Positions 16,347 to 31,323 of a DNA stretch of 31,323 bases are shown piece after piece. The notes below the pieces were generated by a model that saw only the letters and a list, made by a program, of their open reading frames with translations, had not been told where the DNA came from and did not search any database. Position numbers and translations under genes: made by a program. Source of the DNA: Anaerolineae bacterium (GTDB lineage: Bacteria > Chloroflexota > Anaerolineae > B4-G1). Position 1 is the stretch's first letter. Every line of letters begins with the position of its first letter. The stretch spans positions 1 through 31,323 of the forward strand of contig JALWUZ010000012.1 in assembly GCA_027079895.1 (NCBI GenBank), given 5' to 3'.

Positions 16347-16363
16347 CGCGTTTCCTCCGCATG

Positions 16364-18358
16364 TCACGGCTTGGCCGTCGGGTCATCCCGGTCGAAGAAC
16401 AGCCGCATCCACAACTCGAAACAGACCATCCGCCATAGAGCACGGTCGGCCTGCACTCGTCCCGCCTTGTGCTGTTCCAAGAGAGTCAACGCCGCCTCCG
16501 GTTGCACGTAACCGCGCTCTCTGAGCCGCCGGGAACGAAGGATCTGCTCCACCTCGTCGGCCACCTCATCCCGAAACCACCACGAGCCGGGGGTCGGGAA
16601 GCCCAGTTTATCCTGCCGCAGTCGGACGAGGTCGGGGATGATACCCCGCATGGCCTTGCGGAGCACGACTTTGGTCGTCCCGCGGTTGATTCTGAGGTGC
16701 GCTGGCAGCCGGTAACTCAGTTCCACCAGCCGGTAGTCGAGGAAAGGCACGCGGGCCTCGACGGAGAAGGCCATCGAGTTGTGGTCCTCGTAGTGGAGCA
16801 GGGAGGGGAGGGAAGAGCGCGTCAAGGAGTTGTAGAGATGTTCGTCGAGAATCGAGGGGAAGTGGCGCTCCCCTTCCGGCTGAGGGGCGTAATGGTCGGT
16901 CAGCGCGGGGTTCAGCCACTCCGGGGCGATGGGAGCGGAACGCAGGCGCGGTCGTCCGCTCCAATGCAAGGCGACCTTGCGCAGAGCAGCGACGAGGGTG
17001 GCGCGGGGCCGCAATCCCAGATGATGGGGGAATGACCGCCACTCGCGCCACAGGGCAGCGAATCGCCCGGTGCGAATCAGGTCAGCCAGAAAAGAACTGT
17101 AGTAGGGTGAGTATCCGGCCAGCATTTCGTCGGCTCCCTGACCGTCGAGGAGCACCGTGACTCCGGCGGCGCGGGTCAACTCCATCACGTGCCACTGGGA
17201 GTAGATGGTGGTGGAGCCGAACGGTTCCCCCTGATGCCAGATGAGGCGCGGCGCGATGGCGAACAGGTCGGCGGCCTGGGGAGTGACGCGGTGACTTTCG
17301 ACGTTAGTCTGGGCGACGACAGCCTCGATGAACCGCTCCTCCTCGATGCCCGGATAGTCGTAGACCGACGAGAAAGTCTTCTGCCGGTCGCCAATCTGAG
17401 TGTCCACGCCCAATCCGCCGTCGGAGAGGAGCAACTGGTTGACCAGGCAGACGATGCTCGACGAGTCAATCCCGCCGCTCAGGCAAGAACCGACCGGTAC
17501 GTCGCTGCGCAGGCGCAGGCGGACGGCGTCCTGCAAGGTGGCGCGGAACTCGGCGACCCACTCCTGGTCGGAACGGCGCGGCGCAGCGGGGTGCAAGTCC
17601 CAGTAACGGGAGATCCGCACTCCGTCGCCGTCCACCAGCATGTAACTGGCGGCAGGTAGTTGTTGGATGTCCTTGAACAGCGTCTCGGCGGTGCGGTTGA
17701 GGTAACGCAGGGCCAGGTAGTCGTAAACCCGCGCCGGGTTCGGCTCGCGGGGGACGTGCGGGTCGCAGAGCAGGGCTTTGATCTCCGAACCGAAAATGAA
17801 ACGGCTGCCGTCGTGGAAGTAGTAGAACGGCTTGATGCCGAACCGGTCCCGTGCGCAGAACAGGCAGCGGCGACGGCCATCCCAAACGGCGAAGGCCCAC
17901 ATCCCGTTGAACCGTTCCAGGCAGTCGGGCCCCCATTCGGCGTAGGCGTGCAGCACCACCTCGGTATCGGTGGCGGTCTCGAAGCGGTGCCCTAGGCTCT
18001 CCAACTGGGCCCGTAGTTCCAGGTAGTTGTAGATCTCGCCGTTGAAGACAATCCACAATCGCCTGTCTGCGTCGCCCATCGGCTGGTGGCCGGACGGGGA
18101 GAGGTCAATGATGGCGAGCCGCCGGAAACCCAGGGCCAGGTCGTGCGGCCTGTCTCCGGCCTGGGCGATGTCAGGCAAACGGAGCGCGGGGACTGTGTCC
18201 CGACCGCCGTATTCGTCACAACTCCCGGCGGCGGTGTCCACGAACAGGTAGCCCTCATCGTCCGGCCCCCGATGGCGCAAGGTGGTCGTCGCCCGCCGGA
18301 TGGTCTCCGGGGGTACCGGGCTGCCGTCGAGATGCCAGACGCCGAAGATGCCGCACAT
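16364..18358 (-). CDS. asnB: AsnB-family glutamine-dependent amidotransferase (polysaccharide-type)
   Basis: N-terminal MCGIFG, RRLAIIDLS..GHQPM, FNGEIYNY, LSGGIDSS and EARVPFLD motifs. Confidence 0.93.
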   Translation of the reverse strand: MCGIFGVWHLDGSPVPPETIRRATTTLRHRGPDDEGYLFVDTAAGSCDEYGGRDTVPALRLPDIAQAGDRPHDLALGFRRLAIIDLSPSGHQPMGDADRRLWIVFNGEIYNYLELRAQLESLGHRFETATDTEVVLHAYAEWGPDCLERFNGMWAFAVWDGRRRCLFCARDRFGIKPFYYFHDGSRFIFGSEIKALLCDPHVPREPNPARVYDYLALRYLNRTAETLFKDIQQLPAASYMLVDGDGVRISRYWDLHPAAPRRSDQEWVAEFRATLQDAVRLRLRSDVPVGSCLSGGIDSSSIVCLVNQLLLSDGGLGVDTQIGDRQKTFSSVYDYPGIEEERFIEAVVAQTNVESHRVTPQAADLFAIAPRLIWHQGEPFGSTTIYSQWHVMELTRAAGVTVLLDGQGADEMLAGYSPYYSSFLADLIRTGRFAALWREWRSFPHHLGLRPRATLVAALRKVALHWSGRPRLRSAPIAPEWLNPALTDHYAPQPEGERHFPSILDEHLYNSLTRSSLPSLLHYEDHNSMAFSVEARVPFLDYRLVELSYRLPAHLRINRGTTKVVLRKAMRGIIPDLVRLRQDKLGFPTPGSWWFRDEVADEVEQILRSRRLRERGYVQPEAALTLLEQHKAGRVQADRALWRMVCFELWMRLFFDRDDPTAKP

Positions 18359-18361
18359 AGG

Positions 18362-19834
18362 CTAACCCTTTCTCCGCCTCACAACGAGACGGCTGCTCAC
18401 CATACGGAGTGCCTCTAGAATGTAGCGACGTTCTAAAAGCAGCATAAAGATGCCATAAGTCACAGTGAACACCAACGCTTTCATCAAACCGGTGCGCCAG
18501 TCAGAGCCGCCGAGTCCCGGCAGGCTCACAACCAGCAGAGAAAGAGACAATCCGGCCACCAAGGCGGCCAGCGGGGCCGCGAACAGCCGTGTGACTGAAA
18601 AATCCACGTAGGCGCGGGCCTGCCACAGCAGGATGGCGATCCCAACAACCAGCATCAAGTCCACGGCCAGTGCAACCCCGGTGATGCCAAATGGAATCCC
18701 CAGTGAAAACAATCCGGCCACCATCACAGCCAATTGGATAGAGCGAGCCCTCACTATCAGTTCCGGCTTTCCTACCGCCACGAACAGTTTGCCGACCGTC
18801 ACTTTGATGGGATCAAACAAAGCGTAGACCAGCATAAAGCGAAAAGCGTCCAGCATTGGGAGCCACTTCTCGCCCAGCAAAAGGCGGATGAACTCCGGCG
18901 CGACGAGGGCCAGCAACCCGGCCAGCAGGAAGCCGCCGCGTACCAAGAAAGCATTGACGCGGAAGAAGGCCCGTGAAAGGCTGGCTCGGGTCTCCTTCAA
19001 TTCAGCGTAAGTGCCCCCGGCGACGGTGTTGAGAGGCGTGGCTAAGATGGTACGGGGGTAATTGGCAAAACGGTAAGCGCGAGAATAGAAACTCAACGGG
19101 GTTTTCCCCAGGAAGAGCCCCGTCCACAGGTCGTCGGTGCGCTCCAACGCCCGTGCCAGCAACGTCGCAAGGAACGCCCGGCCGCCGAAACTCAAGAAAT
19201 AGCGGGTGGCCCTCAAATCCCAGGCCCAATGCGGGCGCCACACTGGACGCCACACGTACAAGGCAAGAAAACTCAGGAGAAGCATCACCAAGTCGGTCGC
19301 CACCAATGCCCACACAGTAGGCTTGTAGGAGGCAATGCCGAGGGCAATCGCAGTGGACAAAATAGCGTTGAGCAACTGTATCACAGCCAGCCGCCGATGC
19401 ACCACTCGGCGTGTCAGAATCAACCGGGGAGTTTCCGTCAGTTGGATACCGGCCCGAACGGCGACAATCGCCAGCATGACGATTCGGTCGGCCTTCTCAG
19501 CCAGCACCAACATACCGACGGCCAGCGCACCGGCCCATACCAGGGTGAAAATAGTTTTGAGGGTGAAATGTACCGCCGCAGCGTGCTCCTCGTCCTCGGT
19601 CTCCGGCGCACGGTGCAGAAACGCGCTTTCCATCCCGAAGTTCGGCAAGGGAGCGGTCAGGGCTGTAATCGAATTCGCCAAAGCATAAACACCGAACGCC
19701 TCCACCGGCAGCCAACGGGCCAACAGGACGGAGCGAATGAAGAGCACGACCACCTTCACCAAACTGGCGACAATGTTCCACGAGGCGGAGGTTACAGTGC
19801 GTTCGGCCAGACTTGTCTCTTGTTTACGTGCCAC
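18362..19834 (-). CDS. wzx: Wzx-type polysaccharide flippase
   Basis: Many hydrophobic segments; LARWLPVEAFGVYALA and LGEKWLP patterns typical of MOP-family flippases; glycan-locus context. Confidence 0.85.
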   Translation of the reverse strand: MARKQETSLAERTVTSASWNIVASLVKVVVLFIRSVLLARWLPVEAFGVYALANSITALTAPLPNFGMESAFLHRAPETEDEEHAAAVHFTLKTIFTLVWAGALAVGMLVLAEKADRIVMLAIVAVRAGIQLTETPRLILTRRVVHRRLAVIQLLNAILSTAIALGIASYKPTVWALVATDLVMLLLSFLALYVWRPVWRPHWAWDLRATRYFLSFGGRAFLATLLARALERTDDLWTGLFLGKTPLSFYSRAYRFANYPRTILATPLNTVAGGTYAELKETRASLSRAFFRVNAFLVRGGFLLAGLLALVAPEFIRLLLGEKWLPMLDAFRFMLVYALFDPIKVTVGKLFVAVGKPELIVRARSIQLAVMVAGLFSLGIPFGITGVALAVDLMLVVGIAILLWQARAYVDFSVTRLFAAPLAALVAGLSLSLLVVSLPGLGGSDWRTGLMKALVFTVTYGIFMLLLERRYILEALRMVSSRLVVRRRKG

Positions 19835-19840
19835 GACCCA

Positions 19841-19960: not shown

Positions 19961-20034
19961 GATCACTTGTGGGCAATCCCGTACTGTCATTGCCCAGCAC
20001 GGCTATGGCGATGGTGCGATCTCGATACATTGAG

Positions 20035-20265
20035 TCATTCCAACAACGCCACAAATTCGTCGCGTGTCAACTCTGCGTCGCGGATTATCTTACGCAGCAA
20101 ACCGCGCCCTATATCCCGCCCCGGATGAACAGGCACAGTAACCACCCGTCCGTCTCGATGCATCATTCGCACATGACTACCCTTCTGACGAACAATGTGG
20201 AAGCCCCCTCTCTCAAGAGCACGTATGAGTTCTGCGGCTTTCAACACGGGTAATCTTTTTGGCAT
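20035..20265 (-). CDS. hicA: HicA family mRNA interferase toxin
   Basis: GFHIVRQKGSHVRM and VTVPVHPGRDIGRGLL motifs. Confidence 0.93.
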   Translation of the reverse strand: MPKRLPVLKAAELIRALERGGFHIVRQKGSHVRMMHRDGRVVTVPVHPGRDIGRGLLRKIIRDAELTRDEFVALLE

Positions 20266-20480
20266 CAGACGGTCACCTTCTGAATGCCTACCACTTCCGG
20301 CATTAACTCATCCATCTCTTCCTCGAGACAAAGTTCAATAACTTCTCTCATATTCGCCATCAGTTCATCAAGTGTTTTTCCCTGGCTGTAACAGGCCCGT
20401 AGCTGAGGCACCTCGCCGACATAATATCCATCCTCATCACGCTCAATGATCACATAGAACTCTCGCATAACCGGCTTCAT
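20265..20480 (-). CDS. hicB: HicB family antitoxin, short form without a DNA-binding domain
   Basis: IIERDEDGYYVGEVPQLRACYSQGKTLDE..NMREVIELCLE; 71 aa; stop overlaps the hicA start. Confidence 0.9.
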   Translation of the reverse strand: MKPVMREFYVIIERDEDGYYVGEVPQLRACYSQGKTLDELMANMREVIELCLEEEMDELMPEVVGIQKVTV

Positions 20481-20526
20481 TTTTCCCTCCTTGCTTCCCT
20501 CACGTCCGGGAAATCGCTACGCTTAC

Positions 20527-20865
20527 CTAATTGCTCCATAGCAAACGGCCCTTCTCCCGCGCCTGAGTGCTAAACTCTGGCGACGTGCGGCTGCCATCCA
20601 CCAGATCAACCAGAAATGGAATGTTGGACATTTCCAGGCGTTCGCGAATCAGGCTCAACTCCCTGGTCACATCGTCGGGGGAAAAGACGATGATGTCGAA
20701 ATCGGAAGCCTCGGAGTGCTCCCCGCTGGCCCTGGAGCCGAACAGATATACCTCGCACCGGCGCTCCTTCAATCCCTGAGCCAGTAGGGAAATGATTTGT
20801 TGCAGGTACCGCCCCTGACCGGTGCTCCGGGCTACCTCGTCCAGAGTTTCCTGCTTTAGTTCCAT
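20527..20865 (-). CDS. Minimal nucleotidyltransferase (MNT), no adjacent dedicated partner
   Basis: VYLFGSRASGEHSEASDFD (GSx10DxD) and IPFLVDLVD motifs; ATG 20865 lies 2 nt after the HEPN stop. Confidence 0.85.
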   Translation of the reverse strand: MELKQETLDEVARSTGQGRYLQQIISLLAQGLKERRCEVYLFGSRASGEHSEASDFDIIVFSPDDVTRELSLIRERLEMSNIPFLVDLVDGSRTSPEFSTQAREKGRLLWSN

Positions 20866-20866
20866 G

Positions 20867-21316
20867 CTAATCCTCACCACCGCGCTCACCGGCTAAATCC
20901 CGCGCGATGATGTCCTCGGCCCAACGGACGGTCGCCTCGGCGATATTGATAGCCTCCTCATACTGCCCCTCGGTGATCGGTTCTAGCCACCCAGGATAGC
21001 GTGTCACCACCGCGTATCTGGTCAAGCGTGCAGCCCGACGTACCTCTGGGGGGACATCGTATCGTGTCTTTGCCAGAACAAGCTCAAGTAAGTTGGCGAT
21101 ATCATGGATGTAAGGGAATCCCACCCTGTTGAGAACCAACACTGCTTTTATGGCCTTCTCCGCTGCTTGCTGAGCGGCAAAACACATATCCTCCAAGTAG
21201 ACACCTTCCACCCGTGCCCGCGCTTGTACCAGATTGCTCCTAGCACGGTTGAGCCACTCTCTGGGGTCATCAGGAGGGAAACGCTTGCCCTGCACAAGTC
21301 TTAGCTTAGCCGGCAT
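20867..21316 (-). CDS. HEPN domain protein
   Basis: PDDPREWLNRARSNL, CFAAQQAAEKAIKAVL, PYIHDI and LTRYAVVTRYPG motifs. Start uncertain (GTG 21295 is possible). Confidence 0.88.
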   Translation of the reverse strand: MPAKLRLVQGKRFPPDDPREWLNRARSNLVQARARVEGVYLEDMCFAAQQAAEKAIKAVLVLNRVGFPYIHDIANLLELVLAKTRYDVPPEVRRAARLTRYAVVTRYPGWLEPITEGQYEEAINIAEATVRWAEDIIARDLAGERGGED

Positions 21317-21626
21317 AGATCACCCGTCCTTCTTTCATCGCCGGTTTGATGACCAATCCAATGGAGTCGCGGTATCTCTCGACATCCTCCGGAGTGACGA
21401 CGATGACATCCACAGGCTGCCCCACTCCAATGAGGTTCATATAAATGTCCCCGGCCAACTCCCCGCGATGGGTCACGCCTGACTTAATGACCAGCAGATC
21501 CACGTCGCTATTCGGCCCCATCTCTCCGCGTGCGGCGGAGCCGAACAGGATGATTCGCTCCGGCTGTGCCACCTCGACGATGCGCCGGACAATCTCGTCC
21601 AGAACAGCCTGGTCTACCTGTCCCAT
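21306..21626 (-). CDS. Minimal nucleotidyltransferase (MNT) antitoxin paired with the downstream HEPN
   Basis: IILFGSAARGEMGPNSDVDLLVI (GSx10DxD); RBS GAGGAG before ATG 21626. Confidence 0.9.
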   Translation of the reverse strand: MGQVDQAVLDEIVRRIVEVAQPERIILFGSAARGEMGPNSDVDLLVIKSGVTHRGELAGDIYMNLIGVGQPVDVIVVTPEDVERYRDSIGLVIKPAMKEGRVIYAG

Positions 21627-21662
21627 CGCCTTGCTCCTCGTCACGCAGTCGCCTACCCCCGT

Positions 21663-21710
21663 TCAAAATTCAGCGACTGAATTTTAACACAGGGATACCC
21701 CCTGTCAAGC
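21663..21710 (-). promoter_or_regulatory. Sigma70-type promoter fused to a palindromic operator (copy A)
   Basis: TTGACA(21708-21703)-16 nt-TAAAAT(21686-21681) with TGn extension; AAAATTCAG-N3-CTGAATTTT overlaps the -10 and the start site. Confidence 0.8.
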
Positions 21711-22775
21711 CTACGAGCGGCCGACAGCCTCTCCGCCGTAGAAAACCTGATCCATGTACCGCACCATCCGCCGACCGTAGGCAATGCGCTCCCGATAAGC
21801 CCGTACCTCGTCGGGGCCGATCTCCCCCAACGCCAACTTGACCGCCACGTAGGGCGCGATGAAATCATCCTGGTAGATGAAACTGGACACGCGCGGGTTG
21901 ATCTCAATCAGCCGGTCGCCGATGAACTGCAAATTGACGCAGTAACTCAGGGGGATGACCCGCAGAATCTCCCGCGTCTGCTCGATTAGATCCGGGCGGC
22001 GAATCAACTCACCGCGCACGATGACCCCCCAGCGGGCCTGCTCGACCGTTTTGACCGTCGTCACCAATTCCTCCCCGTTCAGGCAGATGGAGTCGGTCGT
22101 CACCTCGCCACCGGTGAGGAACTCCATCACGATGAAGTCCGGGAAATCCGGCTCATCCCGAAAGATGGTGACGAACTCGTCCAGCGACATATAGCGGCTG
22201 TTGGGCTTGTAGTTCATCAGCAGGTCGCGGCGGCTGATGGAAGCGTCCATAATCCGAAACCCCCGGCTCCCTTTCGCCACGTGGGGCTTGAAACAGACTG
22301 CCTTCTCAGGGTATCCCAACTCGTGAGCCGCCGCGATGAACTCATCCAGGCTCTTGGGCCAGCGATATGCCGGCAGCGGCAAATCCGTCTCCTGTCTCAA
22401 CGCCTCGTACATCAGATACTTGTTGTTCGCCAGGTCAATGCTCTCCGGCGATGAGACCACTACCCGCGTTCCCAGAGCCTCGAACTCCTCCCTGTGACGG
22501 GCCAGCACCGGTACCTCGAAACTGCTCTCCGGGAACAAGACATCCGGCGACTCCCGCCTGACTACCTCTAGCATCCGCTCGATGTAATCATCGGCGGAGG
22601 CCGCCGGGACGGTGTAGAACCGGTCGGCCAGAAAACGCCCGATCGCCTCGTGATCCATATCCACGCCGACGATCTCCACCTCGCGCTCACCGTTCTGCCG
22701 CAGCATGCGGATAAGCGTGGACGCCCCCGGACAACCACAGGCCGTCACCAGAATCTTCAACGGTTTCAACGTCAT
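21711..22775 (-). CDS. ATP-grasp protein (carbamoyl-phosphate-synthase-like family found in glycan loci)
   Basis: ILVTACGCPG, NNKYLMY, FKPHVAKGSRGF, MEFLTGGE and LIEINPR motifs. Confidence 0.88.
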   Translation of the reverse strand: MTLKPLKILVTACGCPGASTLIRMLRQNGEREVEIVGVDMDHEAIGRFLADRFYTVPAASADDYIERMLEVVRRESPDVLFPESSFEVPVLARHREEFEALGTRVVVSSPESIDLANNKYLMYEALRQETDLPLPAYRWPKSLDEFIAAAHELGYPEKAVCFKPHVAKGSRGFRIMDASISRRDLLMNYKPNSRYMSLDEFVTIFRDEPDFPDFIVMEFLTGGEVTTDSICLNGEELVTTVKTVEQARWGVIVRGELIRRPDLIEQTREILRVIPLSYCVNLQFIGDRLIEINPRVSSFIYQDDFIAPYVAVKLALGEIGPDEVRAYRERIAYGRRMVRYMDQVFYGGEAVGRS

Positions 22776-22793
22776 CTTCGTCCCTCCGATAGG

Positions 22794-23588
22794 CTATACT
22801 TCACCGGCTTGCTCTTGCAGCCGAATCTCCTTTTCCACTTCTTCCTCCAACAGATTCAGCACCCGTCGGCGGACGGCCAGGAACGCTTCTCCAGTGTAAT
22901 CGCGGGGACGGGCCATATCCACATCCACGATCCCCTTCACCGTCCCCGGCCGGGCGGTCATCACGACGATGCGGTCCGCCAGAAAGACCGCCTCGATGAC
23001 GCTATGGGTCACGAAGACCACCGTTTTGTGCGTCTTGTCCCAGATGTCCACCAACTCCCGCTGCATATGCTTGCGCGTTTGGGCGTCCAGAGCCCCGAAC
23101 GGCTCATCCATCAGCAGCACCTTGGGGTTGTAAGCCAACGCGCGGGCGATTCCCACCCGCTGCTTCATCCCGCCGGAGAGGGTATGGGGATAAGCGTTCT
23201 CGAAGCCGCCGAGATGCACCAGGTTGATGTACTCCTGAGCCACCCGCTGCGCTTCGGACTTGCTCCACCCGTTGTGGATCAAGCCGAACATCACGTTGCC
23301 CAACACCGTTTTCCAGGGGAACAGCGCGTAATCCTGGAAGACGAACCCCCGATCTGGCCCTGGCCCTGCTATCTCCCGACCGTCCAACAGAATGCGGCCC
23401 GCCGTCGGCTGCTCGAAGCCGGCCATCAGGTAGAGCAGGGTGGACTTGCCGCACCCCGAAGGGCCGATCAACACGGTGAACTCCCCCTCGTGGATGTCGA
23501 GAGTGACCCCCCCCAGGGCCTCTACTTGAGCGGCGCCCTGGTCGAAAACCTTGTGTACGTCCTGCACCTCGATGATCGCTTTGCCCAT
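22794..23588 (-). CDS. NitT/TauT-family ABC transporter ATP-binding protein
   Basis: GPSGCGKST, FQDYALFPW, LSGGMKQR, LLMDEPFGALDAQTR and FVTHSV motifs. Confidence 0.95.
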   Translation of the reverse strand: MGKAIIEVQDVHKVFDQGAAQVEALGGVTLDIHEGEFTVLIGPSGCGKSTLLYLMAGFEQPTAGRILLDGREIAGPGPDRGFVFQDYALFPWKTVLGNVMFGLIHNGWSKSEAQRVAQEYINLVHLGGFENAYPHTLSGGMKQRVGIARALAYNPKVLLMDEPFGALDAQTRKHMQRELVDIWDKTHKTVVFVTHSVIEAVFLADRIVVMTARPGTVKGIVDVDMARPRDYTGEAFLAVRRRVLNLLEEEVEKEIRLQEQAGEV

Positions 23589-23594
23589 AATCGC

Positions 23595-24389
23595 CTACCG
23601 TTTAGCCAACATCCCCCACTTCTCGACCGTCTCCCGCTCCAACCACTTCAACAACACCCGGTCGAGCAGGAAGCCGGAAAACCCGATAATCAGCAGCCCC
23701 ATCAACATCACCGCCACGTCGTTCCAGAAGCGGGCCTGATAGACCATTTTGCCGATTCCCCACTCGACCAGCGCGGAGAGCATCTCCCCGCCCACCAGGG
23801 CCCGCCAGGAGTACCCAATCCCCAGCCTCAATCCGGTGATGACCGAGACCAGCGAGGCCGGCAACAACACCTCGACGAACAGCCGCCATCCGCTCACCCC
23901 CATAATCCGCGCCGCGTTCAACTGCCCCTGATTCACCATCTCGATACCGCGCATCGTGTTGTAAGTGATGGCGAAGAAGCCGCCCAGGAAAACCGCCGTG
24001 ATGACCGTCCGGTCGCCCAGCCCCATCGTGATGAGCAACACCGGCACCCAGGCGATAGTCGGCACCGAAATGAGCATGCTGAGCACCGGCGCGAACATCT
24101 CCCGGAGCAGCCGACGGGACGCCAGCGCCACCCCCACTATGATGCCCAGTCCCACCGCCAGGACGTACCCGATGGCCAGGCGGTACAGGCTGCTGGCCAG
24201 ATGGTGGAGCAGCACCCCCCTGATGGTCAACGTCCACAACTTGCCGACGATCACCGACGGGGACGGCAGCATCTCCATCCCGACGAGGTGCAGCCGTACC
24301 GCCAGTTCCCACAGGAGGCCGACGACGAGGAAAGGAAACAGGAACTCGACTATGCTCTTGGCGGCTGCGCGACCGGAATCGCCGTTCAT
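23595..24389 (-). CDS. NitT/TauT-family ABC permease
   Basis: LPSPS, VPTIAWVP, GLRLGIGYSWRALVGGEM motifs; start at ATG 24389 overlaps the upstream stop. Confidence 0.92.
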   Translation of the reverse strand: MNGDSGRAAAKSIVEFLFPFLVVGLLWELAVRLHLVGMEMLPSPSVIVGKLWTLTIRGVLLHHLASSLYRLAIGYVLAVGLGIIVGVALASRRLLREMFAPVLSMLISVPTIAWVPVLLITMGLGDRTVITAVFLGGFFAITYNTMRGIEMVNQGQLNAARIMGVSGWRLFVEVLLPASLVSVITGLRLGIGYSWRALVGGEMLSALVEWGIGKMVYQARFWNDVAVMLMGLLIIGFSGFLLDRVLLKWLERETVEKWGMLAKR

Positions 24390-25204
24390 CTCTGCACCAT
24401 CCCCCAGCGTTCGACGGTGAACTTTTCGAGTGTGTTGACCAACCCCTTTTCGATGACGAAATAGATGATGATGAGCAAGAAAATCCCCCCGTAAACCACC
24501 CCGGCCCGCAGATACTCGGCGGCATCCCAGATCATATAACCCAGTCCCCAACTGGCGGCGGCGATGAACTCAACGGCGATAATCGTCCGCCAGCAACGGG
24601 CCAGGCCCAACTTGACGCCCACCAACACGTACCCGGCGGCCCAGGGGAGATACACGTCGAAGAGCAGCGTCCCCTTGCCGGCCTCCATCATCCGCGCCGC
24701 CCGCACCAACTGCGGGTCAATGCTGCGCACCCCCGCAGCCGTGTTGTACGCCAGCGGGAAGAAAGCCGCGATACTGCCCAGCGCGATGATGGTCGGGTCG
24801 CCGAACCCCAGCCAGACGATGAACAACGGGGCCATCGCAATCCCCGGCACCGGCATCAACACCGTGATGAGCGGGTCGAAGAAGCGGTACAGGCGGCTGC
24901 TGATACCCATCAGGGCCCCCGCCAGCGTCCCGGACAATATCCCAATCACCGACGCCACCAGCAGACGGCTCAACGTGGCCGTGACGTGGCCTATCAACAG
25001 CGAACGAGTTGGCAGACCACTCGTGTACAACTCTGCCAACTCGCTCGCTATCTCCGTCGGCGGCGGGAACAGCGACGGATTGATGAGATTGACACCGGCA
25101 AGTAACTGCCAACCGGCCAGGAACAGAGCGACCGGCAACGCCGGCAGCCACCACCGGCTACCGGTCGCCCTACTGCTTTTGTGCTTCCTCCAAGAAACTC
25201 CCAT
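24386..25204 (-). CDS. NitT/TauT-family ABC permease (second)
   Basis: FPPPTE, PVPGIAMAPLFIVWLGFG and WRTIIAVEFIA motifs. Confidence 0.92.
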   Translation of the reverse strand: MGVSWRKHKSSRATGSRWWLPALPVALFLAGWQLLAGVNLINPSLFPPPTEIASELAELYTSGLPTRSLLIGHVTATLSRLLVASVIGILSGTLAGALMGISSRLYRFFDPLITVLMPVPGIAMAPLFIVWLGFGDPTIIALGSIAAFFPLAYNTAAGVRSIDPQLVRAARMMEAGKGTLLFDVYLPWAAGYVLVGVKLGLARCWRTIIAVEFIAAASWGLGYMIWDAAEYLRAGVVYGGIFLLIIIYFVIEKGLVNTLEKFTVERWGMVQR

Positions 25205-26141
25205 CCCACCTGAACTCCGGCACGGCGTCTATCTTGCCCTTCTCGTGCAAGAACTGAGCCGTGTCCTCGATAGAAGCCAACACCTGCTCGTCGAACTTCA
25301 GCGAGAAGTCCACCCGCTCGAAAATGCGCTTGAACGCATCGGCGGACACGTTTATCCCCTGCGCCGAGGCGGCTTCGGCGGCCAACTTCGCGGCCTGGTC
25401 GGGGTCGGACTCGATCATCTCCACCTTGTCAATGTGGGCCGCCAGGAAGTTCACGAGTGCCTGATGATTGTTGTTGGCGAAATCTACGGTCGTGTGGATG
25501 GACACCGGGACCAGCGCGATGTCCCCGTAACTGCGCAACACCCGCCCCACGCCCTGGGATTCGGCGATCGCCGGCGTGGGCTCCCAGGCGGTGAACGCCT
25601 CGATGCTCCCGTTCTCCAACGCGGAGATCATATCCTCGATCTTCACGTTCACCCAGTTGAAATCATCCCACGAGAGATCATCCACCTGGTCGAAGTACCG
25701 CAACAGAACCTGCTCCGCGCCGGTCCCCAAGCGCGTGCCGACGGTCTGCCCCTTCAAGTCGTACCAGGTCTGGTACGGCGAGTCCGCCCTGACGATGGTC
25801 GAGTAGCGGTCTCCCCGCTGAACCGTGCCGATGATCAACGCCCGGTCCGGCATCGCACTGAACAGGGCCACCGTCTTGCTGTCCGAACCCACGTTGACGT
25901 CAATCTCGCCGGAGATGAGGGCCTGATTGTTCTCCGTGCCGGAACTGAACAGAATGTGCTCCACGGTCAGACCGTGATCCGTCCAGAACTGCGGATGGCC
26001 CTTCAGGAGAAACTCGCCGGGGTAATACTGCCCCCCGTACCGGATCTTCATCTCCGGCGTGCTCTTGCATCCCCCCAGCAGGGAGACGCCGAGCGTCAAC
26101 AACAGAACGATAGAAACGTACCACGTGAACCTTTTGCTCAT
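25170..26141 (-). CDS. NitT/TauT (SsuA/TauA-like) ABC substrate-binding lipoprotein
   Basis: Signal peptide with lipobox LLGGC; FSSGTENNQALISGEIDV, DLKGQTVG and GSIEAFTAWEP motifs; RBS GAGGAGG. Confidence 0.88.
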   Translation of the reverse strand: MSKRFTWYVSIVLLLTLGVSLLGGCKSTPEMKIRYGGQYYPGEFLLKGHPQFWTDHGLTVEHILFSSGTENNQALISGEIDVNVGSDSKTVALFSAMPDRALIIGTVQRGDRYSTIVRADSPYQTWYDLKGQTVGTRLGTGAEQVLLRYFDQVDDLSWDDFNWVNVKIEDMISALENGSIEAFTAWEPTPAIAESQGVGRVLRSYGDIALVPVSIHTTVDFANNNHQALVNFLAAHIDKVEMIESDPDQAAKLAAEAASAQGINVSADAFKRIFERVDFSLKFDEQVLASIEDTAQFLHEKGKIDAVPEFRWDGSFLEEAQKQ

Positions 26142-26171
26142 GACCTGCCTCCTCAAGATTTAGTCGAGGCA

Positions 26172-26215
26172 ATTCTAATGGAGGCAGTCCAGGAAAGCAA
26201 ATAACGAACCTTTAT
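26172..26215 (-). promoter_or_regulatory. Promoter of the ABC operon with an abutting LysR-type box
   Basis: TTGCTT(26200-26195)-17 nt-TAGAAT(26177-26172); dyad ATAA-N7-TTAT (T-N11-A) at 26201-26215. Confidence 0.65.
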
Positions 26216-27141
26216 CGCCGCTCCGCCTCGAGCGAGCCGAGCACTTCAGCGGCGGAGCGGTGAGCGAAGTCCAGGAACGCGCGGGCCAGGTTGGACAGCG
26301 GGGTGGTGCGGCGATAGACGGCGTACAGGTGACGGTTCAACTCGACCCCTTCCACCGGCACCTCCACCAGCACGCCGCGGGCCAGTTCCTCGGCGACGCC
26401 CAGTCGGGAGATGATGGCGACCCCCAACCCGGCCCTGACGGCGGTCTTGACCGACTCTTGGAGCCCGACCTCCGCCACGATGTGCAACTCGTTGAAAGAG
26501 ATGCCGTACTCCCGCAGCGCGTCCTGCAACACCGCCGTGGCGCCGGAACCGCGCTGCTGCAAGATCAACGGCGCGTTGAGCAACTGCTTGTAGGAGACTT
26601 TCCGCGCGGCAGCCCAGGGATGACCCGGCGGCACAATCAAGACCAACCGGTCGCGCACGAAAGGCTCGAAAGTCAGGTGGCGGTCCCGTCGCGCCACTCC
26701 CACGAACCCCAGCGCAAACCGCTGCCGGAGCACGCCGTCTATCGTCTCGCTGGAGTCGCCCACGTGCAGGGCGACCTCGACTTCTTGATGTCGCTCCTTG
26801 AACCGCCCCAGGAGCAGGGGCAGCAGGTACTCGCCGGGGCCCGTGCTGGCCCCGATGGTCAGCCGGCCGGCGACGTGCCCGTGTAACTCGCGGACTCGCT
26901 GGCGGGACTGCTCGTACAGATCCACTATCTGCCGGGCCGACTCGTAGACGACGCGCCCGCTTTCGGTCGGCTGAACCTCGAACCCACCCCGATGGAGCAG
27001 TTGGACGCCGTACTCCTCTTCCAGGGATTTGATCTGCATACTGACCGCCGGCTGAGTGATACCCAGCGACTCAGCCGCGCGGGAGAAACTCCGTTGCTCC
27101 ACCACCCGGCACAGGGACTTGAACTCCTCCAAGCGAGCCAT
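26212..27141 (-). CDS. LysR family transcriptional regulator (CysL/CmpR/selenium-metabolism-associated-like)
   Basis: SFSRAAESLGITQPAVSMQIKSLE helix-turn-helix; IGASTGPGEYLLP and VKTAVRAGLGVAIIS motifs; start at ATG 27141. Confidence 0.92.
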   Translation of the reverse strand: MARLEEFKSLCRVVEQRSFSRAAESLGITQPAVSMQIKSLEEEYGVQLLHRGGFEVQPTESGRVVYESARQIVDLYEQSRQRVRELHGHVAGRLTIGASTGPGEYLLPLLLGRFKERHQEVEVALHVGDSSETIDGVLRQRFALGFVGVARRDRHLTFEPFVRDRLVLIVPPGHPWAAARKVSYKQLLNAPLILQQRGSGATAVLQDALREYGISFNELHIVAEVGLQESVKTAVRAGLGVAIISRLGVAEELARGVLVEVPVEGVELNRHLYAVYRRTTPLSNLARAFLDFAHRSAAEVLGSLEAERR

Positions 27142-27151
27142 CGCCGCCGAC

Positions 27152-27463
27152 TCACACATACTCCAGCCACGGATCGTTCTGGATGTGCGCCAACTTCCGC
27201 CCCAGATACGGCAGCCTCTCCAGCCCGTGCCACCGACGCAGCAAGTGATAAGCCGACGACGTGAGCAAGCGGCACTTGTCCACCGCCTCGCGCCATTCCG
27301 GCTTCTTGACCTCCGCCACCGTCTCCGGCAGCGGCAAAATCCCGAAATCCCAGGCAGCGCACAGCCGGACGAGGAAGTCAATCCGCTCGTCCAGGCTCTT
27401 CAACTCCGTCGGCGGCTCCACGTCGGGGTACAGAGAGCCGTCCAGCCAGTCGTTAGCGGGCAT
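27152..27463 (-). CDS. Hypothetical protein (103 aa)
   Basis: Strong RBS AGGAGGAG, globular composition, fits between MNT and LysR without overlap; no family recognised. Confidence 0.7.
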   Translation of the reverse strand: MPANDWLDGSLYPDVEPPTELKSLDERIDFLVRLCAAWDFGILPLPETVAEVKKPEWREAVDKCRLLTSSAYHLLRRWHGLERLPYLGRKLAHIQNDPWLEYV

Positions 27464-27503
27464 TCAGGAACTCCTCCTGGGACCAATTCCTGACCCTGGC
27501 GTC

Positions 27504-27866
27504 CTACGCCAGCCTCATCCCTTCCTCCAGTGCCCGGCGGATGAACAGATTGCCCTCGGACAACATCCGCCTCACCTCCTCCCTGGTGTAGGGGAAGACA
27601 TCCACCCCCACCGGCAGACCCGTCGGGAGATAGCGTGGGATGCGCTCCAGGAAAGGGCGGTCGGCCTGCGACAGAATGACCAGGAGGTCGGCGTCGCTGC
27701 ACGGCACGGCCTCGCCACGCGCCAGCGAGCCGAACAGGAGCACCTGTTCAATCTCCGGGTGACGTTGCCTCATCCGCCGCGCGGAATCCCTCAACATCTC
27801 CACCGTTTTCTGCGAGTCCAGCCAGTGTATCCTCACAGAACCGGATGATGGCTCGGTATTTCTCAA
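27504..27866 (-). CDS. Minimal nucleotidyltransferase (MNT) without HEPN partner
   Basis: VLLFGSLARGEAVPCSDADLLVIL (GSx10DxD) and PVGVDVFPYT motifs; start uncertain (TTG). Confidence 0.83.
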   Translation of the reverse strand: MRNTEPSSGSVRIHWLDSQKTVEMLRDSARRMRQRHPEIEQVLLFGSLARGEAVPCSDADLLVILSQADRPFLERIPRYLPTGLPVGVDVFPYTREEVRRMLSEGNLFIRRALEEGMRLA

Positions 27867-27867
27867 T

Positions 27868-29211
27868 CTACTCCCCGGCCCGACTTCCCGGTCTGCCCCG
27901 TCCCACGCCGCGATAGATCCACCCCGCCGCCGACACCCGCTCCGGTCGGAACACGTTCCGCCCGTCCACCAGCACCGGATGGGCGACCAGCCCCCGCAGA
28001 TACTCCAGATCCAGGTCGCGGTACTCGTCGTGGGCCACCATCACCACCAGCGCGTCGCACCCGCTCACCACCTCTGCCAGGTCGCCCTGATACTCCCGCA
28101 CCCAGGGGTCGTGGACGCACGTCGTAGCCCCCAGTTCCGCCAGCCGGTTGACCAGAATCTCGCTGGGCGAGTTGCGCGTATCGTCCGAGTTCTCCAGATA
28201 GGCGTACCCCAGCACCGCCACCCGCGCCCCCTCGATTTCCAGACTGGCCTCCTCGAGCGCCTCGACGGTCAAATCCGCCATGTGGAGCGGCATGAAGTCG
28301 TTGACCGCCCGCGCCGCCGGAATCAACCGCGCCTGCACCATCTCACTCGCGCCGTAGGCCAGCAGCCAGGGGTCTTTGGGGATGCAGTGCCCGCCCACGC
28401 CCGCGCCGGGATAGAGCACGTTCCGACCGGGGCTCTTGTTCACCAGTTCCCGCACCCGCCACACGTCGGCCCCCACCCCCTCACAAATCAGGGCCAACTC
28501 GTTGGCGAAAGCGATCTGCACGTCCCGGTAAGCGTTCTCCCCCGTCTTGACCAACTCCGCCGTCACGCAATCCGCCAGGTCCAGGTCGGCCTCGACGATG
28601 TGCCGGTAGAACGCCTGCGCCAGCCGGGCCGCCTCCGGCGTGTCCCCGCCGACGACGCGGCTCATCTGGGCCAGATTCCTCAACAACATACCCGGCATCA
28701 CCCGCTCCGGGCAATGCACCAGGTAGAAGTCGCGCCCGCTCGTCCGCTTCCCTCCGGCTTCCAGGATTGGCCGCACCAGCCGCTCCATCGTCCCCGGCGC
28801 GATGGTGGACTCGATGATCACCAACGCGCCGGGCTTCAGGTGCGGTTCCAGCGACCGCAGGGCGGCACGCAGCGCACTGTAGCGGGGCTGGTGAATGCTG
28901 TCTATCGGCGTCTCCACCGCAATCAGCACCACGTCCGCCTCGCGGCAGACGGCGTAGTCGCCCGTCGCCCGCAGCCGTCCGGCGGCCACCACCTCGGCGA
29001 CCAACTCCGCCAGCCCCGGCTCCTTCCCTTCGATTGGGCAATCCCCGCGGTTGATGATCGCCGTCTTCTCGGCGTTCACGTCCAAACCGGTCACGTCGAA
29101 CCCCACCCGGGCGAAACTGGCCGCCACCGGCAGCCCGACGTACCCCAGCCCGATGACGACCAGGCGGGCCGCGCGTTCCTCCATCCGCTTCAACAGCGTC
29201 TCGAAATCCAT
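27868..29211 (-). CDS. Nucleotide-sugar 6-dehydrogenase (WecC/WbpA-like UDP-HexNAc dehydrogenase)
   Basis: VIGLGYVGLP, HCPERV, KTGENAYRD and GAGVGGHCIPKDP motifs. Confidence 0.93.
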   Translation of the reverse strand: MDFETLLKRMEERAARLVVIGLGYVGLPVAASFARVGFDVTGLDVNAEKTAIINRGDCPIEGKEPGLAELVAEVVAAGRLRATGDYAVCREADVVLIAVETPIDSIHQPRYSALRAALRSLEPHLKPGALVIIESTIAPGTMERLVRPILEAGGKRTSGRDFYLVHCPERVMPGMLLRNLAQMSRVVGGDTPEAARLAQAFYRHIVEADLDLADCVTAELVKTGENAYRDVQIAFANELALICEGVGADVWRVRELVNKSPGRNVLYPGAGVGGHCIPKDPWLLAYGASEMVQARLIPAARAVNDFMPLHMADLTVEALEEASLEIEGARVAVLGYAYLENSDDTRNSPSEILVNRLAELGATTCVHDPWVREYQGDLAEVVSGCDALVVMVAHDEYRDLDLEYLRGLVAHPVLVDGRNVFRPERVSAAGWIYRGVGRGRPGSRAGE

Positions 29212-29214
29212 CTC

Positions 29215-30225
29215 TCACCTCTTCACGATTACTCGATGCTCGCGGCCCGACCGCACCAAATCCTGCGAAAGTTCCAGGGCCGTCAAACCGTCCTCGCCGC
29301 TCACGACGGTGGACTGCTCGCCCCGCGCTGCCGCGACCAACGCCTCCAACTCCGCCCGCAGCGGCTCCCGGCGATGCAGTCGGAGGCGAATCATCTGCCC
29401 CTCGCTCACCCCGCGCAGGATGCGCAGATTGTTCCAGTCCAGCCCGCCGGCGTCGTCGTTCTCGTAGAGATACAGGTCTTGCGTCAGCAGATTCGCCAGG
29501 AACATCCCGCGCTGTCCGGTGACGGTGATCTCCCGTATCTTGGTCGGCGTGAGCCAGTTGATGTTCAACACCCCCACGATGCCGTCCTCGAACCGGAGCA
29601 GGCCGGAGAACAGGTCTTCGTGGGCGGTGTGAATTTCCTGCTCCGTCTCGGCGTACAGCCGCACCACCTCTTTGCCCGTCAGATAGCGCATAATGTCCAG
29701 GTCGTGAGGGGCCAAATCCACCACCACTCCCACGTCCCGCACCCGCGCCGGAAACGGCCCCAGCCGCCGGGCGTGGATTTGGAAAATGCCTCCCAGTTCC
29801 CCGGCGTCCAGCCGCCGCTTCAACTCGATTACCGCCGGATTGTACCGCTCGATATGCCCTACGGCCAGCACCCGTCCCAGGGCAGCGGCCCGCGCGATCA
29901 TCTCCCGTCCCTCGTCCAGCGTGGCGGCGATCGGCTTCTCCACCAGCACGTGACAGCCGGCCTCCAGCGCGTCCAGCACCACCTGATGATGGGCCTGGGT
30001 CGGCACGGCGACTGTCACCACATCCGGCTGTACCTCCTCCAACATAGCGCGGTAGTCCCTGTACGGACGTGCGCCGCGCAGCCTGGCCGCCTCCTGCACC
30101 GCTCGCTCGGAGAGGTCGGACACGGCGGCCAGTTCGACATCCGCCATCTCCTGATACACCCGCGCGTGATTGCGTCCCATCGCTCCCACGCCAATCACGG
30201 CCGCTTTCAGCACATTGTCGCTCAT
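29215..30225 (-). CDS. Gfo/Idh/MocA oxidoreductase (WlbA/WbpB-like)
   Basis: VIGVGAMGRNH, HVLVEKPIA, VGHIERYNPA and DLAPHDLD motifs; start at ATG 30225. Confidence 0.9.
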   Translation of the reverse strand: MSDNVLKAAVIGVGAMGRNHARVYQEMADVELAAVSDLSERAVQEAARLRGARPYRDYRAMLEEVQPDVVTVAVPTQAHHQVVLDALEAGCHVLVEKPIAATLDEGREMIARAAALGRVLAVGHIERYNPAVIELKRRLDAGELGGIFQIHARRLGPFPARVRDVGVVVDLAPHDLDIMRYLTGKEVVRLYAETEQEIHTAHEDLFSGLLRFEDGIVGVLNINWLTPTKIREITVTGQRGMFLANLLTQDLYLYENDDAGGLDWNNLRILRGVSEGQMIRLRLHRREPLRAELEALVAAARGEQSTVVSGEDGLTALELSQDLVRSGREHRVIVKR

Positions 30226-30241
30226 TGTCACCTCGATTGTC

Positions 30242-30290
30242 TCAAAATTCAGCCGTTGAATTTTAGCACCGGCCACACCCCGTGTCAAGC
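30242..30290 (-). promoter_or_regulatory. Sigma70-type promoter fused to a palindromic operator (copy B)
   Basis: TTGACA(30288-30283)-17 nt-TAAAAT(30265-30260) with TGn extension; AAAATTCA-N5-TGAATTTT overlaps the -10 and the start site. Confidence 0.8.
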
Positions 30291-30317
30291 ACAGGACGCG
30301 GCGTCCACTGACGAGGG

Positions 30318-31322: not shown

Positions 31323-31323
31323 C

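What the first reader, a model, noticed from the sequence alone, without database searches (positions are those of the whole stretch)
21663..30290. The same promoter-operator module drives both the TA cluster and the nucleotide-sugar genes
Seen (minus strand): A GCTTGACAGGGGGTAT-CCCTGTGTTAAAATTCAGTCGCTGAATTTTGA (21710-21663) and B GCTTGACACGGGGTGTGGCCGGTGCTAAAATTCAACGGCTGAATTTTGA (30290-30242), 40 of 49 columns identical by hand alignment. Each has a consensus -35 and an extended -10, and the dyad AAAATTCA-N5-TGAATTTT covers the -10 and start site. A precedes MNT-HEPN-MNT-hicB-hicA-wzx; B precedes the oxidoreductase and dehydrogenase. Known: operators overlapping -10/+1 are repressor sites, and many TA modules autoregulate via such palindromes. 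Inference: one unidentified repressor, possibly a TA component, co-controls toxin-antitoxin expression and surface-glycan precursor synthesis. Alternatively, the promoter was duplicated when the 8.5-kb block between the copies arrived.
Basis: partly seen in the sequence, partly recalled or inferred. Interest (0 to 1): 0.78.

Follow-up and report, generated by a model that had tools for sequence, protein, structure and literature searches.

The report
Shared operator of a glycan-locus regulator
The two look-alike promoters are real, and they carry the conserved binding site of a MarR-like regulator encoded elsewhere in this Anaerolineae genome; that regulator, not a toxin-antitoxin protein, most likely switches the surface-glycan genes, with the embedded toxin-antitoxin genes carried along.

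Summary
Sites A (21663-21710, minus) and B (30242-30290, minus) are 40/49 identical. Each is TTGACA-N16/17-TG-n-TAAAAT with the dyad AAAATTCA-N5-TGAATTTT over the -10 and the predicted start.

The genome (a hydrothermal-vent Anaerolineae MAG) holds exactly three such sites. The third lies in front of a 159-aa winged-helix regulator ("REG", contig C749). REG is MarR_EPS-like but scores below that family's cut-off and carries an extra C-terminal domain.

In 64 of 80 loci from other Anaerolineae, the same dyad sits within 150 nt upstream of the REG orthologue. It is almost absent elsewhere in those loci. Among 61 related genomes it tracks REG presence. Most loci that carry the dyad have no MNT1/HEPN1-like gene beside REG.

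Near relatives have one dyad and a single co-directional array: REG, wbpD/E-like, Gfo, dehydrogenase, LysR-ABC, ATP-grasp, wzx. In this genome the array is broken upstream of Gfo, where site B lies. Site A came with an MNT-HEPN cassette inserted before wzx.

Best reading: a three-promoter regulon of an autoregulated repressor. Binding and transcription starts are untested, because no RNA runs were listed.

The scan noted the same regulator-palindrome pair earlier on another genome (e1-2629006).

This is a new member of a known kind, of moderate interest.

The parts
21663..21710 (-). Site A promoter-operator. -35 TTGACA at 21708-21703; TG-extended -10 TAAAAT at 21686-21681; dyad AAAATTCA-GTCGC-TGAATTTT at 21685-21665. 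The predicted start lies in the loop, near 21674.
   Evidence: It is orthologous to the promoter-MNT1-HEPN1-REG heads in G020, G036 and G021; the same genes stand in G030, where no dyad was found in the held upstream DNA. Strain variants fall around the -35, -10 and dyad but not inside them, among the rows shown.
30242..30290 (-). Site B promoter-operator. -35 at 30288-30283; TG-extended -10 at 30265-30260; dyad AAAATTCA-ACGGC-TGAATTTT at 30264-30244. The predicted start is near 30253.
   Evidence: No dyad precedes Gfo in near relatives L155 and L074, so this copy is derived.
27868..30225 (-). The first two genes behind B: a Gfo/Idh/MocA oxidoreductase (WbpB-like, 30225-29215) and a nucleotide-sugar dehydrogenase (WbpA-like, 29211-27868).
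   Evidence: Pfam and NCBIfam. Orthologues lie downstream of REG, wbpD-like and wbpE-like genes in L074 and L155.
21711..27866 (-). Co-directional genes between B's sugar genes and A: MNT (27866-27504), LysR (27141-26212), ABC importer (SBP, two permeases, ATPase; 26156-22794) and ATP-grasp ligase (22775-21711). No convincing terminator separates them.
   Evidence: Pfam; terminator scan not enriched; the same order in relatives L155, L159 and L160.
20035..21626 (-). TA-type genes behind A: MNT1 (21626-21306), HEPN1 (21316-20867), MNT2 (20889-20527), HicB (20480-20265) and HicA (20265-20035).
   Evidence: Pfam. MNT1 and HEPN1 orthologues (78-86% and 60-68% identity) stand in front of REG in four other genera, directly behind the dyad in three of them. 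This cassette is absent between ATP-grasp and wzx in L159 and L160. hicBA is flanked by a 93-nt repeat at 97% identity.
14044..19834 (-). Glycan assembly genes further downstream of A: Wzx flippase (19834-18362), AsnB-type amidotransferase (18358-16364) and two GT4 glycosyltransferases (16367-14044).
   Evidence: Pfam and NCBIfam. No other promoter-like match lies between A and wzx.

Best explanation
A and B are two of three copies in this genome of one strong sigma-70-type promoter fused to the operator of a locus-specific winged-helix regulator, here called REG.

REG:
- It is 159 aa, encoded at G000:C749:1518-1997, outside the window.
- It is MarR_EPS-like and carries an extra C-terminal alpha/beta domain.

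Proposed mechanism (inferred, not shown):
- REG binds as a homodimer to AAAATTCA-N5-TGAATTTT.
- The left arm of the dyad is part of the -10 hexamer, and the loop holds the predicted start.
- Bound REG should therefore exclude RNA polymerase and repress.
- An unknown signal, perhaps sensed by the C-terminal domain, would release it.

The regulon is one pathway cut into three transcription units:
1. REG, MNT, HEPN-like gene, small membrane ORF, wbpD-like, wbpE-like (contigs C749/C397/C162).
2. Site B: wbpB-like Gfo and wbpA-like dehydrogenase, possibly reading on into MNT, LysR, ABC importer and ATP-grasp.
3. Site A: MNT1, HEPN1, MNT2, HicBA, wzx, amidotransferase, glycosyltransferases.

The TA-type genes are passengers of these operons, not the regulators.

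History:
- Relatives have one operator at the head of a single array.
- In this lineage the array broke upstream of Gfo, and that fragment carries its own operator-promoter (B).
- The promoter-MNT1-HEPN1 head, which precedes REG in other genera, now sits in front of wzx (A).
For: Shown by sequence and comparison:
- Three sites and no more in the assembly; scores 36.6-43.2 against 21.1 for the next best.
- The third site is 43 nt upstream of REG.
- REG matches HTH_24 and MarR_2. Its best NCBIfam match is TIGR04176 MarR_EPS at 70.8 bits.
- The AlphaFold model (pLDDT 89) has an N-terminal winged helix that matches the MarR-family structures FabT, HcaR and MepR.
- A homodimer is predicted at 0.59, against a best control of 0.00. 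That mark was reached by 20 of 30 known homodimers and 1 of 23 monomers.
- In 80 loci with REG orthologues (47-79% identity), 64 have a dyad with at most 2 mismatches within 150 nt upstream. That is 68 sites in 13.5 kb.
- Only 11 sites lie in the other 729 kb, most of them at promoter-like sites further upstream of REG.
- Pattern-free 7-mer counting agrees: AAATTCA/TGAATTT occurs in 55 of 79 upstream regions and 2 of 74 control regions.
- Among 61 related genomes, 19 of 20 with a dyad of at most 1 mismatch have REG. Only 1 of 37 without REG has one, and that one lacks a -35.
- Large genomes of distant relatives hold one or two copies of the core.
- Residues of the recognition helix (G34, V36, N37, W38, R42) are invariant in 21 orthologues.
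- Synteny in the near relative L155: one dyad, then REG ... MNT, NTase-binding protein, wbpD, wbpE, HEPN, Gfo (96%), dehydrogenase (87%), MNT3, LysR, SBP.
- Synteny in L074: dyad, REG, wbpD, wbpE, Gfo, dehydrogenase.
- In L159 and L160, ATP-grasp is followed directly by wzx with no dyad.
- In G000, C749 overlaps C397 by 127 nt. This gives REG ... wbpD, wbpE, then a terminator on C162.

From established knowledge: MarR-family dimers bind palindromes overlapping their own promoters, and an operator over the -10 and +1 represses.
Against: - No experiment or RNA data exist. No RNA run holding this DNA was listed, so the starts are predicted only.
- REG binding to the dyad rests on position, co-occurrence and family behaviour, not on an assay.
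- REG scores below the curated MarR_EPS cut-off (70.8 against 88 bits) and has a different architecture, so family behaviour may not transfer fully.
- Repression rather than activation is inferred from geometry alone.
- The PWM was built from pattern-selected sites. partly removes that circularity.
- The MAG is 93% complete, so further sites could exist.
- Read-through from upstream could make A and B less decisive for expression than assumed.
Confidence: 0.7

Rival explanations
1. A toxin-antitoxin component (MNT, the HEPN-MNT complex or HicB) binds the dyad and autoregulates the TA cluster, with the sugar genes co-controlled.
For: MNT1-HEPN1 lies directly behind the dyad in G000 and in three other genera (G020, G021, G036), and is highly conserved at 78-86% for MNT1. 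Many TA modules autoregulate through palindromes (general knowledge).
Against: Most dyad-bearing loci have no MNT1/HEPN1-like gene beside REG, yet keep the dyad in front of REG. In G009, MNT1-HEPN1 sits behind the dehydrogenase with no dyad. The MNT, HEPN, 71-aa HicB and HicA proteins show only their catalytic or partner domains and no HTH or RHH.
Confidence: 0.05
2. Another DNA-binding protein uses the dyad, for example the LysR regulator encoded between A and B or an unlinked factor. REG would then be merely one of its targets.
For: The dyad fits a loose T-N11-A LysR-type outline, and a LysR gene lies inside the block. Binding was not tested.
Against: This LysR accompanies the locus only in the nearest relatives, whereas the dyad occurs across Anaerolineae wherever REG occurs. 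One or two sites per genome, always at the REG operon, argue for a local autoregulator.
Confidence: 0.1
3. The dyad is not a protein operator. It would be a structural element, such as a DNA cruciform or RNA hairpin, or simply a hitch-hiking part of a duplicated promoter with no regulatory role.
For: The arms are self-complementary. A and B, at 82% identity, are more alike than 99% of between-genome pairs of such modules, whose mean is 67%. This is compatible with a within-genome copy.
Against: With TAAAAT as the -10, the transcript would start inside the loop and lack the left arm. The outer arm positions show no compensatory co-variation, and conservation is base-specific around TTCA/TGAA. 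The dyad is conserved across regulators down to 47% identity while the flanks are not. Similarity between A, B and the C749 site stops at the module edges.
Confidence: 0.07

Closest known systems
MarR-family autorepressors with palindromic operators (such as MepR, FabT, HcaR and MarR itself)
   Same: The winged-helix DNA-binding core matches. Foldseek aligns about 80 residues to FabT-DNA 6jbx, HcaR and MepR-DNA. A dimer is predicted. The palindrome overlaps the regulator's own promoter.
   Different: The wHTH sits at the extreme N-terminus. It is followed by one long helix (residues 65-102) and a small alpha/beta domain (107-152) that forms part of the predicted dimer interface. The operator sequence and the glycan regulon are not described in the papers searched.
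NCBIfam TIGR04176, MarR family EPS-associated transcriptional regulator
   Same: It is the best family match, at E 8e-20 over residues 5-96. A protein with that name aligns to residues 4-99 of the model. REG is associated with polysaccharide loci.
   Different: REG scores 70.8 bits, below the curated cut-off of 88. It is 159 aa against a profile of about 105 positions, and it has an added C-terminal domain.
HEPN-MNT (HepT-MntA type) and HicAB toxin-antitoxin modules
   Same: The MNT, HEPN, HicB and HicA domains are present behind site A.
   Different: No DNA-binding domain is detected in them. The promoter-operator in front of them belongs to REG. MNT1-HEPN1 behaves as a conserved resident of the REG operon head in several genera, not as a sporadic mobile pair.
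WbpA/WbpB/WbpE/WbpD-type pathway for UDP-2,3-diacetamido-2,3-dideoxy-hexuronic acid
   Same: The enzyme classes match: a nucleotide-sugar dehydrogenase, a Gfo/Idh/MocA 3-dehydrogenase-like enzyme, a DegT aminotransferase and a hexapeptide acetyltransferase. They are contiguous behind REG in relatives.
   Different: All equivalog scores are below cut-off, so the exact sugar is inferred. In G000 the four genes are split over two operator-bearing units.

Membership tests
Sigma-70-type housekeeping promoter | -35 TTGACA, a 16-18 nt spacer, -10 TAnnnT, and an optional TG extension | tested here: met
   A has TTGACA-16-TAAAAT with TGT. B has TTGACA-17-TAAAAT with TGC. Both score 11 of 12 and are the only such matches in 12000-31323.
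Sigma-70-type housekeeping promoter | A mapped transcription start downstream of the -10 | not testable with these tools
   No RNA run holding this DNA was listed.
MarR-family autorepressor and operator pair | A winged helix-turn-helix of MarR type | tested here: met
   Pfam HTH_24 4.9e-15 and MarR_2 1.3e-8. Foldseek to FabT, HcaR and MepR, probability 1.00, rmsd 2-3 A over about 80 aa.
MarR-family autorepressor and operator pair | A homodimer | tested here: met
   Prediction only: score 0.59 against a best control of 0.00. The mark was reached by 20 of 30 known homodimers and 1 of 23 monomers.
MarR-family autorepressor and operator pair | A palindromic site overlapping the regulator's own promoter, conserved with the regulator | tested here: met
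   64 of 80 orthologous loci have the dyad within 150 nt upstream, and in most of the closer relatives it overlaps a -10-like hexamer. It co-occurs with REG in 61 genomes.
MarR-family autorepressor and operator pair | Demonstrated DNA binding and ligand-relieved repression | not testable with these tools
   This needs EMSA or footprinting and reporter assays.
TIGR04176 MarR_EPS (equivalog) | A score at or above the curated cut-off of 88 bits | tested here: not met
   70.8 bits.
TIGR04176 MarR_EPS (equivalog) | Location in polysaccharide biosynthesis loci | tested here: met
   REG is followed by wbpD/E/B/A-like genes or by glycosyltransferases in L074, L155 and L059.
TA-module autoregulation through its own antitoxin | An antitoxin or TA complex with a DNA-binding domain | tested here: not met
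   MNT1, HEPN1, MNT2, HicB (71 aa) and HicA show no HTH, RHH or AbrB domain in Pfam.
TA-module autoregulation through its own antitoxin | The operator travels with the TA genes | tested here: not met
   Most dyad-bearing loci have no MNT1/HEPN1-like gene beside REG. MNT1-HEPN1 in G009 has no dyad.

The most novel reading that the evidence does not exclude
The MNT1-HEPN1 pair may not be a selfish TA passenger but a domesticated part of the REG circuit. For example, the nucleotidyltransferase could modify REG or the HEPN RNase, or the HEPN RNase could trim the glycan-operon mRNA.

Points in favour:
- The pair is kept between the operator-promoter and REG in several Anaerolineae genera.
- MNT1 is more conserved (78-86%) than REG itself (about 75%).

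If so, the three-operator layout in this genome would couple a nucleotidyltransferase/RNase switch to surface-glycan synthesis.
Probability: 0.1. Interest if true: 0.7.

Novelty: new member of a known kind. Interest (0 to 1): 0.42.

Why it matters
- It names the likely regulator and a precise operator (consensus T-AAAATTCA-N5-TGAATTTT) for surface-glycan loci in Anaerolineae. This is a largely uncultured Chloroflexota class with hardly any described transcription-factor sites.
- The regulator family has at least 2487 members, annotated only as generic MarR or wHTH proteins.
- The genome gives a clear natural example of a regulon preserved through operon fragmentation. A pathway whose genes form a single array in relatives is split into three units here, each headed by the same promoter-operator.
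- The module is compact, at 49 bp with a near-consensus promoter. It should be directly testable in E. coli.
- The result corrects the idea that the TA genes control glycan synthesis.

Tried and rejected
- RNA evidence: two run searches listed no RNA run, so starts could not be mapped.
- Hairpin reading: a test for symmetric co-variation of the outer dyad positions found none. Pair (0,20) is even anti-correlated, because of overlapping tandem dyads.
- Weaker sites: no other site in the assembly scored above 21.1, against 36.6-43.2 for the three real sites.
- AddA/UvrD-like helicase: it precedes the promoter in G020, G021 and G036. It was sought in G000 to find an ancestral junction and was not found at 1e-10.
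- UbiD and OAD-beta neighbours: neither is seen beside REG in the 95 related loci compared. OAD-beta does precede REG on a near-identical vent-metagenome contig.
- Fourth promoter copy: a contig joint in X5 (21690 to 27148) hinted at one upstream of LysR. The sequence there shows none, and the joint rests on only 27 letters.
- ATP-grasp orthologues: sought in 60 relatives to date junction A, with only two hits. Metagenome contigs had to be used instead.
- Literature: searches for TIGR04176 and for the EPS-associated MarR regulator gave nothing on operators.
- Recent cassette-type duplication of A and B: considered and set aside. The true cassette-flanking repeats in this window are 97-98% identical. 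A and B are 82% identical, differ in loop and spacer, and share no flanks.
Full report
**1. Observation**

Both modules are in the sequence as described, on the minus strand.
- Site A (21710-21663) reads GC-TTGACA, a 16-nt spacer ending TGT, TAAAAT, then TCA-GTCGC-TGAATTTT-GA.
- Site B (30290-30242) is the same with a 17-nt spacer ending TGC and the loop ACGGC.
- Alignment gives 40 identical of 49 columns, and similarity stops at the module edges.

The dyad AAAATTCA-N5-TGAATTTT, allowing up to 3 mismatches, occurs only at these two places in the window. Shuffles expect 0.02. A and B are the only 11-of-12 promoter matches in 12000-31323.

Contigs from other samples of the same vent system carry both junctions. 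The X2 contig bridging A differs at 84 positions over about 6 kb. The layout is therefore real and shared by related strains. In those strains, substitutions fall at 21651-21660, 21701, 21721 and 21724. Among the rows shown, none falls in the -35, the -10 or the dyad. The numbers are small.

**2. A third copy and the regulator**

The window is a whole contig (C12) of a 3.6-Mb, 809-contig MAG with 65.6% G+C.

A genome scan finds a third site at C749:1454-1474, reading TTGACA-16-TAAACT with the same right arm and GA. A weight-matrix scan separates these three sites (36.6-43.2) from everything else (at most 21.1).

The third site lies 43 nt upstream of a 159-aa protein, here called REG.
- REG matches HTH_24 and MarR_2.
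- Its best NCBIfam family is TIGR04176, the MarR family EPS-associated regulator, at 70.8 bits. That is below the cut-off of 88.
- The AlphaFold model (pLDDT 89) shows an N-terminal winged helix, a long helix (65-102) and a small alpha/beta domain.
- Foldseek aligns the first ~80 residues to MarR-family structures, including DNA complexes of FabT and MepR.
- A protein named as an EPS-associated MarR aligns to residues 4-99.
- A homodimer is predicted through the long helix and the C-terminal domain: score 0.59, best control 0.00. The mark was reached by 20 of 30 known homodimers and 1 of 23 monomers.

**3. The dyad belongs to REG**

Among 61 related genomes:
- 24 have REG.
- 20 have a dyad with at most 1 mismatch.
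- 19 of those 20 have REG.
- The one exception has no -35.

A wider scan found 238 relatives of REG, all in Chloroflexota MAGs apart from one short contig binned with an archaeon. The named ones are mostly Anaerolineae and include Thermoflexales and Caldilineaceae.

In the 80 best loci (47-79% identity):
- 64 carry a dyad with at most 2 mismatches within 150 nt upstream of REG. That is 68 sites in 13.5 kb.
- Only 11 sites lie in the remaining 729 kb.
- Most of those 11 are promoter-like sites further upstream of REG, with MNT-HEPN or small ORFs in between, or belong to a second REG.

Counting 7-mers without any pattern gives the same answer. AAATTCA/TGAATTT occurs in 55 of 79 upstream regions and in 2 of 74 control regions.

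In most of the closer relatives the site overlaps a TAAAAT or TATAAT box placed 17±1 nt from a TTGACA-like hexamer. Many relatives have two overlapping dyads 14 bp apart, or an extra TGAA half-site. Large genomes of distant relatives hold one or two copies of the core.

The outer arm positions do not co-vary symmetrically. With this -10, the transcript would start in the loop. The element therefore behaves as a base-specific protein site, not a hairpin. Residues of the recognition helix of REG are invariant in 21 orthologues.

**4. What the three promoters control**

Pfam and NCBIfam give the gene map.

Behind B:
- a WbpB-like Gfo/Idh/MocA oxidoreductase and a WbpA-like nucleotide-sugar dehydrogenase;
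- then MNT, a small ORF, LysR, an NMT1-type ABC importer and an ATP-grasp ligase;
- no convincing terminator separates them.

Behind A:
- MNT1, HEPN1, MNT2, HicB and HicA;
- then Wzx, an AsnB-type amidotransferase and GT4 glycosyltransferases.

Behind the C749 site:
- C749 overlaps C397 by 127 nt;
- the unit reads REG, MNT, NTase-substrate-binding (HEPN-like) protein, a small membrane ORF, a hexapeptide acetyltransferase (WbpD-like) and a DegT aminotransferase (WbpE-like);
- its end, with a strong terminator, lies on C162.

The three units together look like one pathway. The first two would supply a 2,3-diacetamido-uronic-acid-type nucleotide sugar, and the third would handle its polymer assembly. 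The exact sugar is an inference, because all equivalog scores are below cut-off.

**5. History from relatives**

- In L155, the nearest relative with a long contig (REG 84%, Gfo 96%, SBP 91%), there is one dyad in 14.5 kb, upstream of REG. It is followed by one co-directional array: REG, Tricorn-like gene, MNT, NTase-binding protein, wbpD, wbpE, HEPN, Gfo, dehydrogenase, MNT3, LysR, SBP, permease.
- L074 has dyad, REG, wbpD, wbpE, Gfo, dehydrogenase, with no dyad before Gfo.
- In L159 and L160 (ATP-grasp 91% and 83% identical), the ATP-grasp gene is followed after about 130-230 nt by wzx. There is no dyad and no MNT cassette.

Two changes are therefore specific to this lineage.

First, the array was broken between wbpE and Gfo. 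The Gfo fragment now lies behind ubiD and has its own promoter-operator, site B. By my reading, the ~20 nt between the module and the Gfo start still resemble the native Gfo leader of L074.

Second, a promoter-MNT1-HEPN1 unit, together with MNT2 and hicBA, sits between ATP-grasp and wzx. Exactly this unit heads the REG operon in G020, G021 and G036, with MNT1 at 83-86% identity. G030 has the same gene order (MNT1 78%), but no dyad was found in the held upstream DNA. Site A is therefore the orthologue of that operon head.

A and B, at 82%, are more alike than 99% of between-genome module pairs, whose mean is 67%. They are far less alike than the 97-98% identical repeats that flank young cassettes in this window. 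They differ in loop and spacer. An old within-genome copy is possible but not shown.

**6. Mechanism and confidence**

Shown:
- the three sites;
- their promoter-like architecture;
- the conservation of the dyad with REG;
- the synteny.

Inferred, from MarR-family behaviour and from the operator lying over the -10 and +1:
- REG dimers bind the dyad and repress all three units, including their own gene;
- an unknown signal relieves repression.

I put this at about 0.7.

The TA-component reading is unlikely (0.05).
- The dyad persists where no MNT1/HEPN1-like gene stands beside REG.
- MNT1-HEPN1 occurs without the dyad in G009.
- The TA proteins lack DNA-binding domains.

LysR or another factor as the binder (0.1) and a non-protein role (0.07) remain possible.

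The second criterion, preferential conservation in orthologous loci, was tested and passed.

**7. Comparison with known systems, and novelty**

This works like a classical MarR-type autorepressor. It is related to the EPS-associated MarR family but not a scoring member of it, and it has an added C-terminal domain.

I found no paper on its operator. Databases name the at least 2487 homologues only generically.

First-stage notes of this scan had already flagged the same palindrome-plus-regulator on another genome (e1-2629006). By its coordinates that appears to be my site G028:C398:13498-13518. Other notes flagged the extra C-terminal domain on related proteins.

I class this as a new member of a known kind. 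Its modest special interest is the three-fold operator that follows operon fragmentation, and the conserved MNT-HEPN pair at the operon head.

Noticed in passing
G000:C749:1-3200 with C397 and C162 (outside the window): The end of C749 overlaps the start of C397 by 127 nt. Joined, they read: OAD-beta | dyad promoter, REG, MNT, NTase-substrate-binding protein, small membrane ORF, wbpD-like, wbpE-like. C162 starts with the wbpE C-terminus, followed by a strong intrinsic terminator and a convergent gene.
   Followed up: partly
L059:9988-11253, L060:9679-10935, L061:7735-9019, L069:9742-10939: In three other genera the REG operon head is dyad promoter, MNT1, HEPN1, REG; a fourth (G030, L069) has the same gene order, but no dyad was found in the held upstream DNA. 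MNT1 is 78-86% identical to the window's MNT1, which is more conserved than REG itself (about 75%). That is unusual for a selfish TA pair.
   Followed up: partly
L079:5955-5989, L119-L131 upstream of REG, L144:5954-5988: Many relatives have two overlapping dyads offset by 14 bp (for example AAAATTCA-N5-TGAATTTCA-N5-TGAATTTT) or an extra TGAA half-site. This suggests cooperative binding of two dimers. The three G000 sites are single.
   Followed up: no
L059:6592-10017, L060:10906-14412, L061:4288-7725: In G020, G036 and G021 the -35 and upstream part of the REG promoter lie inside, or at the very end of, the open frame of a ~1140-aa AddA/UvrD-type helicase-nuclease gene. This helicase was not found in G000.
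   Followed up: partly
L061:7735-14460 (G021:C97): G021 has two REG paralogues 5.4 kb apart. One follows MNT1-HEPN1 and the other follows its dyad directly. Each has its own dyad.
   Followed up: no
window 21711-22775: The ATP-grasp ligase is rare among related genomes (2 of 60). It has homologues at 61-66% identity in MAGs labelled Heimdall-, Hod-, Thor- and other Asgard archaea, and Bathyarchaeota. This suggests lateral transfer of the gene.
   Followed up: no
window 27852-27868: Contigs from runs X2 and X3 carry 360 extra letters in place of 15 bases between the dehydrogenase gene and the following MNT gene. This is a strain-level insertion or deletion at another gene junction.
   Followed up: no
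window 19868-19960 and 20542-20634; 13103-13143 and 14017-14057: A 93-nt direct repeat (97% identical) brackets the MNT2 tail and hicBA. A 41-nt repeat (98% identical) brackets another HEPN-MNT pair. This confirms two earlier first-stage notes. These repeats are much younger than the A/B pair.
   Followed up: partly
window 21690 and 27148: One X5 contig joins 21690 (inside site A) to 27148 (just upstream of the LysR start), skipping LysR, the ABC importer and ATP-grasp. Only 27 letters lie on the shorter side, and no promoter copy is visible at 27148, so it is probably unreliable.
   Followed up: partly
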